Of a stretch of DNA of 64,000 nt, positions 44,346-61,115 are shown piece by piece. This DNA is from an uncultured bacterium (GTDB lineage Bacteria; Patescibacteriota; Minisyncoccia; Phycocordibacterales; Zambryskibacteraceae), in the NCBI GenBank assembly GCA_963789635.1, contig CAWBLF010000001.1, positions 59,568 to 123,567 of the forward strand. Reading direction: 5' to 3'. Position 1 is the first letter of the stretch, and the number at the start of each line of letters is the position of its first letter. The notes under the pieces are model-generated. The model was not told the DNA's origin. It made no database searches and was given only the letters and a program-made list of their open reading frames with translations. The position numbers and the translations under genes were made by a program.

Positions 44346-44420
44346 GTAAATATAGACAAAACAAAATATTTTCGCTATAGTTTTGTTCATGTTTTGAGAG
44401 TTTTCCTTTTTTCTCAATTC

Positions 44421-44623
44421 CAATTAAATATGCGCCCATAGCTGTTTTGGTAGGTATACAGGGAATGTGGTAAGTTTGAAAAGTAAATAAATTATGCGCC
44501 CATAGCTGTTTTGGTAGGTATACAGGGAATGTGGTAAGTTTGAAAAGTAAATAAATTATGCGCCCATAGCTGTTTTGGTAGGTATACAGGGAATGTGGTA
44601 AGTTTGAAAAGTAAATAAATTAT
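44421..44623 (+). repeat. Tandem 64-bp repeat (3 units) made of the tRNA-Lys 5' end fused to a conserved core, directly abutting the tRNA
   Basis: Units start at 44432, 44496 and 44560 (period 64), and the true tRNA starts at 44624. The unit is GCGCCCATAGCT+GTTTTGGTAGGTATAC+agggaatgtggtaagtttgaaaagtaaataaattat. Confidence 0.9.
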
Positions 44624-44696
44624 GCGCCCATAGCTCAGCTGGTAGAGCAGATCCCTCTTAAGGATAAGGTCGTAGGTTCGATCCCTACTGGGCGCA
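44624..44696 (+). tRNA. tRNA-Lys (anticodon CTT)
   Basis: Hand-folded cloverleaf: acceptor GCGCCCA/TGGGCGC, D arm GCTC-AGCTGGTA-GAGC, anticodon loop CT-CTT-AA, T arm GTAGG-TTCGATC-CCTAC. Confidence 0.9.
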
Positions 44697-45029
44697 CAAA
44701 ATACAGAAACATCCCGCCTGCGCGGGATTTTCTGATTCTGTGCGAGGCGCAGACATGTTTTGTAGTAACAAAACAGTCGAGCCGGGGTCGCGAGATTTTT
44801 CTGCAGAAAAATACTTGTGACCACAAATACAGAAACATCCCGCCTGCGCGGGATTTTCTGATTCTGTGCGAGGCGCAGACATGTTTTGTAGTAACAAAAC
44901 AGTCGAGCCGGGTGAGAGCGAACACTCGGAGCTTTGCAAGACCTTGAGCGTTTTGTATTCAAAATGCGAAAGGTGTACAGATCCTGTAAGGATCGCGGAA
45001 ATTTTCAGTAGAAAATTATCTGTGACCAC
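44695..45029 (+). repeat. Two tandem copies of the tRNA-trailer composite element (H1-H2-H3-GTGACCAC); the second copy carries an ~85-nt insertion
   Basis: Copy 1 spans 44695-44824 and copy 2 spans 44822-45029. The first ~90 nt are identical (period 126). See findings for the hairpin structure. Confidence 0.85.
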
Positions 45030-49392: not shown

Positions 49393-49431
49393 TTTGCATC
49401 TGAGTAGGAGTATCTCCTTCGACTAAATTAT

Positions 49432-49572
49432 GTGGTCACGAATAATTTTTGTTTCGTCAAACAAAAATTTTCTCGACCCCGGCTCACCATAGCCAATTGC
49501 TATTGGCTATATGTTTGCGCCTAGCACAGAATCAGAAAATCCCGCGCAGGCGGGATGTTTCTGTATTCTGTG
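49432..49572 (-). repeat. tRNA-trailer composite element copy (3' of tRNA-Arg-GCG)
   Basis: On the tRNA-sense strand: H1 identical to the 44.7-kb copies, H2 = ATAGCCAAT-agca-ATTGGCTAT, GAGCCGGGGTCG, H3 = AATTTTTGTTT-gacg-AAACAAAAATT, and the end ...TTCGTGACCAC. Confidence 0.85.
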
Positions 49573-49647: not shown

Positions 49648-49670
49648 TTTTGTCGACTACGTCGACAAAA
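49648..49670. terminator. Bidirectional hairpin
   Basis: TTTTGTCGAC-tac-GTCGACAAAA lies between the tRNA-Arg 5' side and the 3' end of the beta-helix protein gene. Confidence 0.5.
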
Positions 49671-53098: not shown

Positions 53099-53185
53099 GG
53101 AGGAGTGGCAGAGTGGTCTATCGCACCGCTCTTGAAAAGCGGAAGGCTCGAAAGGGTCTCGTGAGTTCGAATCTCACCTCCTCCG
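53099..53185 (+). tRNA. tRNA-Ser (anticodon TGA)
   Basis: Acceptor GGAGGAG/CTCCTCC, anticodon arm CCGCT-CT-TGA-AA-AGCGG, a long variable arm, and T arm GTGAG-TTCGAAT-CTCAC. Confidence 0.9.
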
Positions 53186-53337
53186 CAATGATCCGCGAAA
53201 ATGTCTGGGAGACATTTAAACGGAGCATCATTTCTAGAGGAGGTGAGATTCGAAAGCCATAGGCCAGCGTAGGCTGGCGAGGCGGGGTAGCGGAAATTTT
53301 CAGCAGAAAATTATCCGTCGCCGAATCTCACCTCCTC
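53186..53337 (+). repeat. tRNA-Ser trailer element variant, ending in a 16-nt direct repeat of the tRNA 3' end
   Basis: An inverted 18-nt copy of the tRNA 3' end sits at 53237-53254. H2-like hairpin: GCCAGC-gtag-GCTGGC. Then GAGGCGGGGTAGCGG, H3 AAATTTTC-agca-GAAAATT, and the direct repeat CGAATCTCACCTCCTC (53322-53337 = 53168-53183). Confidence 0.8.
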
Positions 53338-59070: not shown

Positions 59071-59403
59071 ATGAAAAAAATTAACTTTAAAAAATTAATC
59101 TCACAGATACACCTACCGAAAAAGAAGGAGTATCGGACTATAAGCGGAAAGGCGCAACACGATTGGAAAATATTATCGATAGGCTTTATGGTTGTTGCCC
59201 TTATCGTGATTGGAGTAAATACACTTTTATTTTTCAAAGTGAACAACCCAGGACCTTCACAGGGCGCGTCTGCCCAAGATATGACAAGCGGTGTCATCAG
59301 CAAGAAAAACCTTGATGATACGGTTCAATTTTTTCAAGCAAGGGCTACACGCCTAACCGAATTGAAACTGAATAAGCCGAACGTCCCAGATCCATCTCTA
59401 TAA
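59071..59403 (+). CDS. Hypothetical single-TM protein, last gene of the pilMNO operon
   Basis: MKKINFKKL... with the TM segment ILSIGFMVVALIVIGVNTLLFF. The start is taken at ATG 59071 within ORF 59041..59403. Confidence 0.5.
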   Translation: MKKINFKKLISQIHLPKKKEYRTISGKAQHDWKILSIGFMVVALIVIGVNTLLFFKVNNPGPSQGASAQDMTSGVISKKNLDDTVQFFQARATRLTELKLNKPNVPDPSL

Positions 59404-59406
59404 TTG

Positions 59407-59497
59407 TGGTCAGTGGTTTCGTCTACAGACGAAACATTACTTAGCTCGGCACAGAATCAGAAAATCCCGCGCAGGCGGGATGTTTCTGTATTCTGTG
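59407..59497 (-). repeat. Short tRNA-trailer element copy (3' of tRNA-Arg-TCT)
   Basis: On the tRNA-sense strand: canonical H1, CCGAGCTAAGTAAT, the hairpin GTTTCGTC-tgta-GACGAAAC, and the end CACTGACCAC. Confidence 0.8.
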
Positions 59498-59567
59498 CCC
59501 CCGGTAAGAATCGAACTTACATTGACGGCTTAGAAGTCCGCAGTTCTATCCATTGAACTACGGGGGC
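59496..59567 (-). tRNA. tRNA-Arg (anticodon TCT)
   Basis: Acceptor GCCCCCG/CGGGGGC, D arm GTTC-AATGGATA-GAAC, anticodon loop CT-TCT-AA (the stem has one G-U pair and one A/G mismatch), T arm GTAAG-TTCGATT-CTTAC. Confidence 0.8.
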
Positions 59568-59623
59568 ATGCATAACTAATCTTACACAAAAGCGTTATAT
59601 ATTAAAGCAAAAATATTGTGTTG

Positions 59624-59705
59624 TGGGCACGGAGAGATTTGAACTCTCAAGCCTTGCGGCATACGCTTCTGAAGCGTACGCGTATACCAGTTCCGCCACG
59701 TGCCC
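59624..59705 (-). tRNA. tRNA-Leu (anticodon CAG)
   Basis: Acceptor GGGCACG/CGTGCCC, anticodon arm TACGC-TT-CAG-AA-GCGTA, a long variable arm (TGCCGCAAGGCT), T arm GAGAG-TTCAAAT-CTCTC. Confidence 0.85.
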
Positions 59706-59763
59706 ATTATCTACCTACTTATCATATCAGTGCTTTATAATACGCATAACAATCGTGCATTTG

Positions 59764-59783
59764 TACCAGTTCCGCCACGTGCC
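59764..59783 (-). repeat. Orphan 20-nt copy of the tRNA-Leu(CAG) 5' end (tRNA nt 2-21)
   Basis: TACCAGTTCCGCCACGTGCC at 59764-59783 is identical to 59685-59704 inside the tRNA. The copy lies 58 nt upstream of the tRNA in the tRNA orientation. Confidence 0.85.
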
Positions 59784-59794
59784 AAAATGTGTTT

Positions 59795-59930
59795 GTGGTC
59801 ACAGATAATTTCTTTGCCGTCGCAAAGAAATTTACGCGACCCCGCCTCGCGGTTTTGCGTACTCGCAAAACATCGCTGTGGCTCCCACAAAAGCACAAAA
59901 TCTGCCGAAGGGAGGTCTTTGTGTCTTTTG
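59795..59930 (-). repeat. tRNA-trailer composite element copy (3' of tRNA-Val)
   Basis: On the tRNA-sense strand: a divergent H1 (CACAAAAGACACAAAG...CTTTTGTG), H2 = GTTTTGCG-agta-CGCAAAAC, GAGGCGGGGTCGCG, H3 = AATTTCTTTGC-gacg-GCAAAGAAATT, and ...TCTGTGACCAC. Confidence 0.8.
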
Positions 59931-60003
59931 TGGGCGGTAGAGGATTCGAACCCCTGACATCTTCAGTGTAAATGAAGCGCTCTACCAACTGAGCTAACCG
60001 CCC
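59931..60003 (-). tRNA. tRNA-Val (anticodon TAC)
   Basis: Acceptor GGGCGGT/ACCGCCC, D arm GCTC-AGTTGGTA-GAGC, anticodon arm CTTCA-TT-TAC-AC-TGAAG, T arm AGGGG-TTCGAAT-CCTCT. Confidence 0.9.
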
Positions 60004-60251
60004 GTTACCTGCGTATACCTACCAAAACAGCTAATCGCCCGCTTACGTATACCTACCAAAACAGCTAATCGCCCGCTTACGTATACCTACCAAAACAGCT
60101 AACCAAACACAACACCTGCGTATACCTACCAAAACAGCTAACCAAACACAACACCTACGTATACCTACCAAAACAGCTAACCAAACACAACACCTGCGTA
60201 TACCTACCAAAACAGCTAACCGCCCATCACTCACGTATACCTACCAAAACA
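60004..60251 (-). repeat. Array of 7 copies of the 22-nt unit TTAGCTGTTTTGGTAGGTATAC (tRNA-sense strand) with short recurring spacers, directly 5' of tRNA-Val
   Basis: Plus-strand copies of GTATACCTACCAAAACAGCTAA lie at 60013, 60047, 60081, 60120, 60159, 60198 and 60235 (the last truncated). Spacers: tcgcccgcttac (x2), ccaaacacaacacct[g/a]c (x3) and ccgcccatcactcac. Confidence 0.9.
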
Positions 60252-60326
60252 AACGACTATGTCTGTACAACTTACAACAAAACTACTCTTAATGCCAGAT
60301 TATCAAATTTACTATATATTAGACGC

Positions 60327-61115
60327 ATGTCTATTTTGGATGAAATAAAAATTCTTTATGAGGATGATAATATTTTGGTGATCAATAAACCGGCTGGCCT
60401 TGCCGTGCACGCTGATGGCCGGACAAAAGAAGAAACGCTTGCCGACTGGGTGCTGGCCCATTATCCGGAGATGAAAGATGTGGGGGAGCGCGCGAGGCCG
60501 AGTAACGAATTACGAATAACGAACGATGATTCAATATCCAATTCTAAATTCGAAATGCAAAATTCTAATGTTTTGCGACCGGGAATAGTTCACCGTATTG
60601 ACCGCGACACTTCCGGAGCACTTATCATGGCCAAAAGCCAAAAAGCATTTGAATTTTTGAAGTCTCAATTTAAAAATCGATCCGTCCGCAAGGAATATCA
60701 CGCTTTTGTCTATGGCAACATTGATGAAAACTTTGGCACCATAGATAAGCCGATCGGCAGAAGCAGAAGTGATTTTCGCAAATGGTCGGCAGAAACAGGA
60801 GCCCGGGGGGAACTTCGGGATGCTCTGACTTATTTTGAAGTTATTAAGCGAGGTAAAGACGCCACTTTTATACGGGTGTTGCCCAAGACCGGTCGGACGC
60901 ACCAGATACGCGTGCATTTCAAAGCAATACATCACCCAATAGTGGCCGATGCGCTCTACGCTCCAAAAAAAGATAAACTTTTGGGATTTCAAAGAGTGGC
61001 TCTTCACGCATATTCGTTGGAGTTCAAAGACTTGTCCGGCAAAACTGTCGTAGTAACCGCTCCGTATCCTGCCGATTTTTTGCACGCAATGGAAGAATTT
61101 GATAAGAAAAGCTAA
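60327..61115 (+). CDS. RluA-family pseudouridine synthase (no S4 domain) with a ~30-aa insertion before the catalytic motif
   Basis: DDNILVINKPAGLAVH, catalytic HRIDRDTSGALIMAKS, and TGRTHQIRVH. Extra segment: ERARPSNELRITNDDSISNSKFEMQNSNVL. Confidence 0.85.
   Translation: MSILDEIKILYEDDNILVINKPAGLAVHADGRTKEETLADWVLAHYPEMKDVGERARPSNELRITNDDSISNSKFEMQNSNVLRPGIVHRIDRDTSGALIMAKSQKAFEFLKSQFKNRSVRKEYHAFVYGNIDENFGTIDKPIGRSRSDFRKWSAETGARGELRDALTYFEVIKRGKDATFIRVLPKTGRTHQIRVHFKAIHHPIVADALYAPKKDKLLGFQRVALHAYSLEFKDLSGKTVVVTAPYPADFLHAMEEFDKKS

What the first reader, a model, noticed from the sequence alone, without database searches (positions are those of the whole stretch)
59763..59783. Third case of an orphan tRNA 5' fragment upstream of its tRNA (tRNA-Leu-CAG)
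- A perfect 20-nt copy of tRNA-Leu(CAG) nt 2-21 lies 58 nt upstream of the real gene, in the same orientation.
- It sits directly after the GTGACCAC end of the tRNA-Val trailer element (GTGACCAC-aaacacatttt-GGCACGTGGCGGAACTGGTA).
- The 58-nt spacing is similar to the 52-nt filler in the tRNA-Lys units.
- Three of eight tRNAs in the window carry displaced 5' fragments. Classical integrase att duplications involve tRNA 3' ends, so this points to a recurring rearrangement process acting on 5' halves.
Basis: seen in the sequence. Interest (0 to 1): 0.6.

Follow-up and report, generated by a model that had tools for sequence, protein, structure and literature searches.

The report
Orphaned front half of tRNA-Leu
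A decayed copy of the front half of a leucine tRNA gene sits just upstream of the working gene, most likely a scar left by a small selfish DNA element that once inserted into the gene and rebuilt it; such scars, and intact elements of this kind, are common next to tRNA genes in this group of tiny-genome bacteria.

Summary
Window 59764-59783 (- strand) is an exact 20-nt copy of tRNA-Leu(CAG) nt 2-21, 58 nt upstream of the gene and in the same orientation. It is not a clean fragment. Homology continues in register to nt 45 (34/44), so it is a decayed 5' half followed by 34 nt of unrelated AT-rich filler.

It lies where relatives (L102, L116) have the intact gene: 0-11 nt after the same trailer end (GTGACCAC in L102, GTGATCAC in L116). 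The window therefore carries 79 extra nt.

The organism is a Paceibacteria-like CPR bacterium. Across 213 tRNAs in related loci and the window:
- 5' self-copies lie upstream in 12 genes;
- 3' self-copies lie downstream in 30 genes;
- other classes are near zero.

In relatives the same layout still holds a small GIY-YIG ORF: orphan 5' part with a D-loop hairpin, ORF, then intact tRNA. This was seen in 21/21 looked-up loci plus L003 and L004. A weakly HNH-like ORF occupies the same position in L034.

My best reading (confidence 0.5) is an ORF-less relic of an insertion that supplied a replacement 5' part. The Lys and Val arrays would be such relics amplified by unequal recombination.

No endonuclease or hairpin remnant survives in the window. 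A pseudo-D-arm box shared by the Val and Lys relics is unexplained.

The parts
59764..59783 (-). Exact 20-nt copy of tRNA-Leu(CAG) nt 2-21; the well-preserved head of the orphan
   Evidence: E = 9e-8.
59740..59783 (-). Pseudo 5' half of tRNA-Leu(CAG), corresponding to nt 2-45; 34/44 identical and in register with the gene
   Evidence: family D6: 44 nt, 77%, spacing 79. (14/24 in register after the exact part; best of all offsets; p about 0.0009).
59706..59739 (-). 34-nt AT-rich filler with no homology to the tRNA or to the sequence upstream of the orphan
   Evidence: No stable fold for the fragment plus spacer (z = +1.35).
59623..59705 (-). Intact tRNA-Leu(CAG) gene
   Evidence: 57.4 bits.
59795..59929 (-). 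Structured trailer element of tRNA-Val, ending GTGACCAC (59802-59795), 11 nt before the orphan
   Evidence: (z = -4.66).
59930..60003 (-). tRNA-Val(TAC) gene
60007..60251 (-). Array of about 6.6 units (34-39 nt) upstream of tRNA-Val. Each unit is a pseudo copy of nt 1-22 (acceptor part, then TAGCT-GTT-TTGGTAG) plus a short filler
   Evidence: A promoter-like site lies upstream of the array, at 60333-60306.
44425..44635 (+). 3.3 units of 64 nt upstream of and running into tRNA-Lys(CTT). Each unit has nt 1-12 exact (44432-44443, 44496-44507, 44560-44571), followed by the same 16-mer, GTTTTGGTAGGTATAC
   Evidence: A promoter-like site at 44353-44381 lies upstream of the array.
44624..44697 (+). 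tRNA-Lys(CTT) gene

Best explanation
The 20-mer is the best-preserved part of an orphaned 5' half of the tRNA-Leu(CAG) gene. This is the proposed sequence of events.

1. The ancestral gene began 11 nt after the tRNA-Val trailer, as in relatives.
2. A DNA segment was inserted into the gene near the anticodon arm. It carried foreign sequence plus a replacement copy of the tRNA's 5' part.
3. The working gene was thereby rebuilt 79 nt further downstream, and the native 5' part was stranded upstream.
4. By analogy with relatives, the foreign part was probably a minimal homing-endonuclease cassette of the GIY-YIG type. The cassette has since been deleted down to 34 nt, and the orphan is decaying.
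5. The tRNA-Lys and tRNA-Val arrays are the same kind of relic, later amplified by unequal recombination or slippage between the short direct repeats.

The relic itself probably has no function. It is intergenic or leader DNA, and RNase P would remove it if it is transcribed.

Shown: the exact copy, its in-register extension, its ancestral position, the lineage-wide positional bias, and the ORF-containing architecture in relatives.

Inferred: that the window's three ORF-less cases descend from such cassettes, that the endonuclease drives the insertion, and that the relic is functionless.
For: (1) The orphan is a decayed 5' half, not a stray 20-mer: 34/44 in register to nt 45, then no homology.

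(2) It sits at the ancestral gene position. In L102 and L116 the same trailer core ends (GTGACCAC in L102, GTGATCAC in L116) and an intact tRNA-Leu(CAG) follows after 11 and 0 nt. The window has 79 extra nt there.

(3) The filler is not a copy of the leader upstream of the orphan. The same holds in most ORF-less cases in relatives (2-8 of 16 nt identical). A simple tandem duplication of leader plus 5' part therefore does not explain the founding event.

(4) Relatives show the same layout with an ORF still present:
- L003 (Val) and L004 (Arg-GCG) have a GIY-YIG ORF (PF01541, E = 2e-10 and 7e-14) between the orphan 5' part and the intact tRNA.
- Two GIY-YIG subfamilies were found (409 and 258 homologues). 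Their contexts were looked up for 8 protein clusters.
- In 21 of 21 loci the ORF abuts or overlaps an intact tRNA: Arg-GCG, Arg-TCT, Arg-CCG, Lys-TTT, Ile-GAT, Asp-GTC or Val-TAC.
- Of the 11 loci examined (5 clusters) have an upstream copy of tRNA nt 1-13 within 3 mismatches, exact in five of them. In L181 and L188 an orphan 5' part carrying the double hairpin was read directly from the sequence. For L189/L190 I did not establish one.
- In several loci the ORF stops on the TAG formed by tRNA nt 8-10.
- L034 has a weakly HNH-like ORF in the same position at tRNA-His.

(5) Orphans in ORF-containing and ORF-less cases end in the same region, nt 26-45. The edge of perfect identity in the Leu orphan (after ...GGTA, nt 21/22) and the two lesions in the Val/Lys box (nt 13-15 and 23-25) coincide with the two hairpin insertion sites seen in cassettes (nt 13/14 and nt 20/21).

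(6) Distribution is patchy. L082 and L160 have a tRNA-Leu(CAG) identical over 83/83 nt but no orphan. None of the 99 metagenome stretches containing the 20-mer holds two copies. Independent, differently built Leu(CAG) orphans exist in L010, L106 and L079.

(7) The predicted sigma-70-like sites lie upstream of the Lys and Val arrays, not inside them. This is expected if the native promoter stayed with the orphan.
Against: - No endonuclease remnant exists in the window. tblastn and a family HMM against the six-frame translation give nothing; the best E is 0.41 and lies elsewhere.
- Neither hairpin type occurs in the window.
- No cassette with an ORF was seen at a tRNA-Leu(CAG) in any locus.
- Decay is non-uniform: 20/20 identical, then 14/24. 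By my arithmetic, the chance that all 10 differences fall in the last 24 of 44 positions is about 8e-4. This needs an extra assumption, such as a conversion tract, a secondary breakpoint or selection.
- The roughly 80-90-aa GIY-YIG proteins have only the catalytic domain. Their specificity and mobility are untested.
- The intact copy would still carry the putative target.
- The pseudo-D-arm box, conserved across species and shared by the Val and Lys relics, hints at selection on at least some relics.
Confidence: 0.5

Rival explanations
1. Purely local duplication with no mobile element. Replication slippage or unequal recombination duplicated a segment covering the 5' part of the tRNA gene, or the whole gene, and the upstream copy then decayed or was partly deleted. 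Only arrangements that keep one intact gene survive. That alone would put 5' remnants upstream and 3' remnants downstream.
For: - The Lys units are 94-100% identical head-to-tail copies.
- The Val array has variant units typical of an evolving minisatellite.
- L106 has 2-3 tandem units that include leader-like sequence.
- L046 has a 132-nt tandem repeat with identical leaders.
- The distance from orphan start to gene start is often about one tRNA length, 58-98 nt.
- The survival argument explains the positional bias.
Against: - For Leu, and for the first unit of the Lys and Val arrays, the filler is unrelated to the sequence upstream of the orphan.
- The same is true in most relatives.
- Beyond nt 45 the Leu spacer shows no similarity to the rest of the tRNA (6/34 by my count), so a decayed whole-gene copy is not supported.
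- This model does not explain the ORF-containing versions of the same layout.
Confidence: 0.25
2. The 5' pseudo-copies are selected cis-elements in the tRNA leader or promoter region. Possible roles are a decoy or immunity site against tRNA-gene-targeting endonucleases, a protein-binding site, or a leader that transiently pairs with the acceptor 3' strand.
For: - The acceptor part of the Val and Lys pseudo-copies tracks the cognate tRNA in about 12 species. The few differences are mostly C-to-T changes, which would keep G-U pairing.
- The box TAGCT-GTY-TTGGTAG-GT is conserved across species and is identical in the Val and Lys arrays: 10 copies in the window against 0.44 expected.
- The Ile-GAT pseudo-halves in L128 and L164 share a hairpin with compensating changes.
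- The arrays lie inside the predicted leaders.
Against: - The Leu fragment plus spacer and both arrays show no stable fold (z = +1.35, -0.88 and +1.94).
- The Leu orphan is absent from lineages with an identical or near-identical tRNA (L082, L160, L102, L116).
- Copy number and filler sequence vary freely.
- Acceptor tracking can result from cycles of expansion and contraction by unequal crossing-over with the gene's own 5' end (inference).
Confidence: 0.15
3. Remnant of a site-specific (integrase-type) integrative element that used the 5' part of the tRNA gene as its attachment site. The 20-nt repeat would be the attL/attR core.
For: Direct repeats that flank inserted DNA at a tRNA gene are the classical signature of integrative elements (established knowledge). 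One locus, L021 (Arg-TCT), has a 3' copy 2.9 kb downstream.
Against: - No integrase or other element genes are present, and only 58 nt lie between the repeats.
- Homology continues in decayed form beyond the 20-mer, unlike a crossover core.
- Long-range copies are almost absent in the loci examined.
Confidence: 0.05

Closest known systems
Endonuclease ORFs associated with partial duplications of host genes in fungal mitochondria (e.g. cob and atp6 in Endoconidiophora resinifera, PMC6279837)
   Same: In that genome, degenerate LAGLIDADG ORFs lie between cob and a partial C-terminal duplicate of it, so the working copy stays intact. A C-terminal duplicate of atp6 follows atp6. Degenerate endonuclease ORFs and bare duplicates also occur.
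   Different: There the duplicate is the C-terminal or 3' part of a protein gene and lies downstream. Here it is the 5' part of a tRNA gene and lies upstream, in a bacterial chromosome. In the window itself no ORF is left.
Phage T4 SegB, a GIY-YIG homing endonuclease in the tRNA gene cluster (PMC2330249; SegB-driven segmental amplification, PMC13096335)
   Same: A GIY-YIG enzyme is tied to tRNA genes. Cleavage in the tRNA region drives preferential inheritance and can drive amplification of neighbouring segments.
   Different: SegB is a free-standing gene between phage tRNA genes. As far as I know, no orphan tRNA halves or ORF-tRNA overlaps have been described for it. The CPR proteins are catalytic-domain-only (about 80-90 aa) and have not been tested.
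attL/attR duplications of tRNA 3' ends by integrases of phages and genomic islands (established knowledge; Williams 2002, recalled from memory)
   Same: The inserted DNA restores the tRNA gene by carrying a copy of the displaced part. This leaves a direct repeat of part of the tRNA.
   Different: This is the mirror image: the 3' part, downstream, in kilobase-scale elements that carry an integrase. None of those features is present here.
E. coli tyrT locus: a 178-bp unit repeated about 3 times downstream, each unit containing the last 19 nt of tRNA-Tyr (Egan and Landy 1978, recalled from memory; the search did not retrieve it)
   Same: Tandem units next to a tRNA gene, each carrying a short terminal piece of that tRNA.
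   Different: There it is the 3' piece, downstream. Here it is the 5' piece, upstream. It is closer to the trailer and 3'-copy phenomenon noted in passing.
Group I introns in anticodon loops of Patescibacteria tRNA genes, a few with HNH endonuclease genes (PMC13011429)
   Same: Same phylum and the same target region of tRNA genes. Partial tRNA pieces flank the inserted DNA.
   Different: Introns interrupt a single gene copy and are spliced out. Here a complete, uninterrupted tRNA follows, and no Intron_gpI match was found in the window or in the cassette loci.

Membership tests
Integrase-type att duplication at a tRNA gene | The repeat covers the 3' end of the tRNA and lies downstream of the gene | tested here: not met
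   The repeat is nt 2-21 (5' part) and lies upstream.
Integrase-type att duplication at a tRNA gene | An element with a recombinase gene lies between the repeats | tested here: not met
   Only 58 nt lie between the repeats, and there is no ORF.
Endonuclease (HEG) cassette insertion with partial duplication of the host gene | An endonuclease ORF lies between the partial copy and the intact gene | tested here: not met
   Not met in the window: no GIY-YIG signal. Met in relatives: L003, L004 and L181-L201. The window case can therefore only be a relic.
Endonuclease (HEG) cassette insertion with partial duplication of the host gene | The partial copy occupies the ancestral position of the gene and the intact copy is displaced | tested here: met
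   Alignment with L102 and L116: the trailer end is followed by 11 and 0 nt and then the intact tRNA-Leu. The window has 79 extra nt.
Endonuclease (HEG) cassette insertion with partial duplication of the host gene | The sequence between the copies is foreign, not a copy of the local leader | tested here: met
Endonuclease (HEG) cassette insertion with partial duplication of the host gene | Site-specific cleavage of the empty allele and homing | not testable with these tools
   This needs biochemistry or genetic crosses. Only a patchy distribution is shown.
Tandem repeat or minisatellite formed by slippage | Head-to-tail units in which the whole period is repeated | tested here: not met
   For Leu, only 44 nt of the 79-nt period are shared. 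The feature is met for the Lys and Val arrays, so it applies to their expansion.
Group I intron in a tRNA gene | Match to the group I intron model, and a tRNA interrupted into two exons | tested here: not met
   No Intron_gpI match at the gathering threshold or at E <= 5. The tRNA-Leu gene is uninterrupted.
Structured cis-regulatory leader RNA | Stable fold and/or covariation | tested here: not met
   z = +1.35 for the fragment plus spacer. There is no orthologous set for covariation, because the orphan is absent in relatives.

The most novel reading that the evidence does not exclude
tRNA genes of Paceibacteria-like CPR bacteria are recurrently invaded by minimal cassettes consisting of a D-loop hairpin plus an 80-90-aa GIY-YIG nuclease (sometimes an HNH-like one). 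The cassette inserts into the D-loop or anticodon-arm region and rebuilds the gene by supplying a new 5' part. Its ORF often terminates on the tRNA's own U8-A9-G10 (TAG). This would be a 5'-side mirror image of the integrase strategy. The ORF-less relics, including the conserved pseudo-D-arm box shared by the Val and Lys arrays, would be retained because they act as immunity or decoy sites or as leader elements for single-copy tRNA genes.
Probability: 0.3. Interest if true: 0.75.

Novelty: new variant of a known kind. Interest (0 to 1): 0.5.

Why it matters
CPR bacteria have tiny genomes and mostly single-copy tRNA genes, so anything that cuts or inserts into those genes is potentially lethal.

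The window's orphan is minor in itself. It does, however, point to a lineage-wide pattern: partial self-copies on both sides of tRNA genes, and small endonuclease cassettes that appear to invade tRNA genes while keeping them functional.

If this is confirmed, it would add three things:
- a 5'-side counterpart to the classical 3'-end integration logic;
- an explanation for the shuffled order and orientation of tRNA genes among relatives;
- a practical caution for annotation, since pseudo-halves, ORFs that overlap tRNAs and leader arrays can all mislead gene calling.

The pattern also flags an uncatalogued structured RNA that follows many tRNA genes.

Tried and rejected
- Exact look-ups of two window proteins found nothing on record, so no same-species contigs were available.
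- The metagenome scan with the 20-mer returned 99 stretches. All hold a single copy and most come from unrelated bacteria, because the 5' end of tRNA-Leu is widely conserved. No strain-level 'empty site' was obtained. The nearest relatives are only about 70% identical at the DNA level.
- The viral-contig scan with the 16-mer box gave 11 chance matches, none preceded by TAGCT. A phage att origin was dropped.
- Rfam at gathering and at relaxed thresholds found only tRNAs.
- Free-end global alignments of the fillers against the rest of the tRNAs were uninformative. Only the ungapped in-register test for Leu was significant.
- Fillers after the box are not alignable between species or between Val and Lys. 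The idea that box plus filler is one mobile unit was dropped.
- I first read L181 as proof of a chimeric tRNA. On checking, both the orphan and the intact 5' strand have one mismatch to the 3' strand, so that argument was withdrawn.
- The sigma-70 scan gave no convincing promoter inside the units, so the 'tandem promoter' idea was dropped.
- The literature search for the tyrT repeats retrieved nothing relevant. That analogy rests on memory.

Full report
**What is there.** ARAGORN finds eight tRNA genes in the window, none with an encoded CCA. tRNA-Leu(CAG) lies at 59623-59705 on the - strand. On the same strand, 59764-59783 is an exact copy of its nt 2-21, with 58 nt between the copy and nt 1 of the gene. 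blastn-short gives E = 9e-8 against the flanks.

Two other tRNAs in the window carry upstream 5' copies.
- tRNA-Lys(CTT) has three copies of nt 1-12 in a 64-nt tandem array at 44425-44635.
- tRNA-Val(TAC) has about 6.6 units of 34-39 nt at 60007-60251.

Of the 15 short-range direct-repeat families of at least 14 nt in the 64-kb window, the six largest and one more lie at tRNA genes.

**The fragment is longer than 20 nt.** The repeat finder reports a 44-nt pair at 77% identity with spacing 79 (family D6). An ungapped comparison shows that the first 24 nt after the exact copy match tRNA nt 22-45 at 14/24. This is the best of all possible offsets, with shuffle p about 0.0009. The remaining 34 nt show no similarity to the tRNA. 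The object is therefore a pseudo 5' half (nt 2-45, 34/44) followed by 34 nt of AT-rich filler and then the intact gene. The fragment plus spacer has no stable fold (z = +1.35), and no Rfam family matches it.

**Who carries it.** The neighbouring genes are an RluA-type pseudouridine synthase, L19, PilM/PilN and DNA polymerase III delta. The closest relatives of the synthase are MAGs labelled Paceibacteria, Zambryskibacteria, Kaiserbacteria or Parcubacteria, with at most 63% amino-acid identity. These place the window in the CPR (Patescibacteria). The nearest loci are only about 70% identical in DNA, so no strain-level comparison was possible. Exact look-ups of window proteins found nothing.

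**A lineage-wide pattern.** I scanned 213 tRNAs in 52 related loci plus the window for exact self-copies of at least 12 nt within 800 nt. The control was tRNAs paired with the flanks of other tRNA genes.

| Class | Observed | Control |
|---|---|---|
| 3' part, same strand, downstream | 32 hits in 30 genes | 0.6 |
| T-arm, opposite strand, downstream | 19 | 1.2 |
| 5' part, same strand, upstream | 14 hits in 12 genes | 1.6 |
| All other classes | 0-3 | |

A gapped scan of 408 tRNAs gave about 25 genes with significant upstream 5' pseudo-copies. They are Val-TAC (many), Leu-CAG (window, L010, L106, L079), Ile-GAT, Ile-TAT, Pro-CGG, Lys-CTT and Arg-GCG. Long-range copies are almost absent. It is two-sided, and the 3' side is the more frequent.

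**The orphan marks the ancestral start of the gene.** In L102 and L116 the same trailer core ends (GTGACCAC in L102, GTGATCAC in L116) and is followed after 11 and 0 nt by an intact tRNA-Leu(CAG). In the window the same trailer end is followed after 11 nt by the orphan, and the working gene begins 79 nt further on. L082 and L160 have a tRNA-Leu(CAG) identical over 83/83 nt but no orphan. None of the 99 metagenome stretches that contain the 20-mer holds two copies. Other Leu(CAG) orphans exist but are built differently:
- L010 has nt 1-28 followed by a structured module.
- L106 and L079 have nt 1-18, a 15-nt replacement of the D-loop, then nt 24-40, repeated up to three times.

The events are therefore recurrent and independent.

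**Not a simple tandem duplication.** For Leu, and for the first unit of the Lys and Val arrays, the filler is unrelated to the sequence upstream of the orphan. In most ORF-less cases in relatives, the 16 nt upstream of the orphan and the 16 nt upstream of the gene share only 2-8 positions. The founding event therefore looks like an insertion into the gene of foreign DNA plus a copy of the tRNA's 5' part. The Lys units (94-100% identical) and the Val units are true tandem repeats, so later expansion by unequal recombination is well supported.

**The same architecture with an ORF in relatives.**
- In L003 (Val) and L004 (Arg-GCG), an 80-87-aa ORF lies between an orphan 5' part and the intact tRNA. 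Both ORFs match the GIY-YIG catalytic domain (PF01541, E = 2e-10 and 7e-14).
- Both proteins belong to large families, with 409 and 258 homologues, named by their sources as Parcubacteria, Zambryskibacteria or Paceibacterota proteins.
- I looked up genomic contexts for eight clusters. In 21 of 21 loci the ORF abuts or overlaps an intact tRNA: Arg-GCG, Arg-TCT, Arg-CCG, Lys-TTT, Ile-GAT, Asp-GTC or Val-TAC.
- Of the 11 loci examined, seven (five clusters) have an upstream copy of tRNA nt 1-13 within three mismatches, 297-354 nt upstream, exact in five of them. In each, the D-loop is interrupted by a GC-rich hairpin at nt 13/14, 15/16 or 20/21. In L181 and L188 an orphan 5' part carrying the double hairpin was read directly from the sequence. 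For L189/L190 I did not establish an orphan.
- In L003, L189/190, L192, L195 and L200/201 the ORF stops on the TAG formed by tRNA nt 8-10, so the replacement 5' part is physically part of the cassette.
- L192 has two ORFs in series. An orphan precedes the second ORF, and a possible remnant (TAGCTCAAT) precedes the first. L188 has a full-length tRNA-Arg with the double hairpin in its D-loop.
- L034 has a 186-aa ORF with a sub-threshold HNH match in the same position at tRNA-His.
- No group I intron model matches these loci.
- The one paper I found on mobile DNA in Patescibacteria tRNA genes describes group I introns in anticodon loops. It does not mention orphan 5' parts in the passages I searched and read.

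**How the window cases fit, and where they do not.** These points fit a cassette origin:
- Orphans end in the same region (nt 26-45) in ORF-containing and ORF-less cases.
- The edge of perfect identity in the Leu orphan (after GGTA, nt 21/22) and the two lesions in the Val/Lys pseudo-D-arm (nt 13-15 and 23-25) coincide with the hairpin sites in cassettes.
- The only sigma-70-like sites lie upstream of the Lys and Val arrays. That is expected if the native promoter stayed with the orphan.

These points do not fit, or remain open:
- The window holds no GIY-YIG remnant and neither hairpin type.
- No ORF-bearing cassette was seen at a Leu(CAG) gene.
- The 20/20-then-14/24 pattern of decay is non-uniform.

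**An unexplained conserved box.** The Val and Lys arrays share the exact 16-mer GTTTTGGTAGGTATAC directly after TAGCT. It occurs 10 times in the window against 0.44 expected. Variants (GTYTTGGTAGGT) occur upstream of tRNA-Val in L003, L004, L005, L012, L015 and L025, and upstream of tRNA-Lys in L135. In those loci the acceptor part tracks each species' own tRNA, and the fillers are not alignable. Both arrays are unstructured as RNA. Acceptor tracking could result from repeated unequal crossing-over with the gene's own 5' end. The shared differences from the true D-arm are not explained. They keep a functional reading alive (rival 2).

My best explanation (confidence 0.5) is that the Leu 20-mer is the head of an orphaned native 5' half. 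It would have been left when an insertion carrying a replacement 5' part rebuilt the gene 79 nt downstream. The insert was most likely a now-deleted minimal endonuclease cassette of the kind still present in relatives.

| Rival explanation | Confidence |
|---|---|
| Local duplication without a mobile element | 0.25 |
| Selected leader or decoy element | 0.15 |
| Integrase-type remnant | 0.05 |
| Chance | excluded |

The feature itself is a relic of modest interest. The wider pattern it exposes has precedent only in mirror-image or organellar systems and deserves a dedicated survey. That pattern consists of cassettes that invade tRNA genes from the 5' side, partial self-copies on both flanks of tRNA genes, and an uncatalogued tRNA-trailing RNA.

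Noticed in passing
window 44698-44824, 44825-45029, 49430-49569 (-), 53187-53337, 59795-59929 (-); short form 59400-59494 (-): A structured 'trailer' of roughly 125-150 nt follows five of the eight tRNAs. It consists of a terminator-like hairpin, two further hairpins around a conserved CGAG-NCGGGGTCGCG, and a 3' end GTGACCAC. The copies fold far better than shuffles (z = -4.7 to -7.3). An nhmmer profile finds 36 copies in the held loci, 34 of them 5-293 nt downstream of a same-strand tRNA of many kinds. RNAalifold gives 25 pairs, 15 with compensatory changes, and conserved G-U pairs. No Rfam family matches. This is a candidate new tRNA-associated RNA family.
   Followed up: partly
window 53237-53254 and 53322-53337 (downstream of tRNA-Ser 53099-53186): The tRNA-Ser trailer contains an inverted copy of tRNA nt 68-85 and, 67 nt later, a direct copy of nt 70-85. 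Together they form a 14-16-bp helix that encloses the trailer core, like an acceptor/T-arm minihelix with a large insert in its T-loop. The same pair of copies, matching each species' own tRNA, recurs in many relatives. It accounts for most of the 30 genes with downstream 3' copies.
   Followed up: partly
window 44913-44997: The second tandem trailer copy after tRNA-Lys carries an 85-nt insert between GAGCCGGG and TCGCG. Its core recurs in L010 directly after the orphan tRNA-Leu nt 1-28, and in trailers in L020 and L036. It looks like a small mobile or optional structured module.
   Followed up: partly
L003, L004, L181-L201 (relatives, not the window): Two subfamilies of 78-99-aa GIY-YIG proteins sit between an orphan tRNA 5' part, which has a GC-rich hairpin or double hairpin in its D-loop, and an intact tRNA. 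The ORF often ends on the TAG formed by tRNA nt 8-10. L192 has two such ORFs in series. L188 has a full tRNA-Arg(TCT) copy with the double hairpin in its D-loop. I found no description of this arrangement in the searched literature.
   Followed up: partly
L034:5495-6175: A 186-aa ORF with a sub-threshold HNH match (PF01844, E = 0.0035 on the C-terminal part) lies between an orphan tRNA-His 5' part that reaches the anticodon and an intact tRNA-His.
   Followed up: partly
window 59495-60003 compared with L001-L052: The order, orientation and presence of Arg-TCT, Leu-CAG and Val-TAC vary widely among relatives. Leu-CAG is missing from this cluster in the most syntenic loci (L001, L002, L004). In some relatives the spacers are only 13-29 nt, against 224 nt from Val to Leu here. 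tRNA genes seem to be rearrangement hot spots in this lineage.
   Followed up: no
window 49648-49670 (-), just upstream of tRNA-Arg(GCG): A perfect hairpin, TTTTGTCGACGTAGTCGACAAAA, lies 5 nt upstream of tRNA-Arg(GCG). It loosely resembles the first hairpin of the double-hairpin element (GCCGACG...GTCGGC) found at the orthologous tRNA in L004. It may be a remnant, but this was not tested.
   Followed up: no
window 60306-60333 (-) and 44353-44381 (+): The promoter-like sites upstream of the Val and Lys arrays share the first hexamer TAGACA (TAGACA-16-TAAATT and TAGACA-17-TATAGT). Both arrays would be transcribed as long G+U-rich, C-poor leaders.
   Followed up: no
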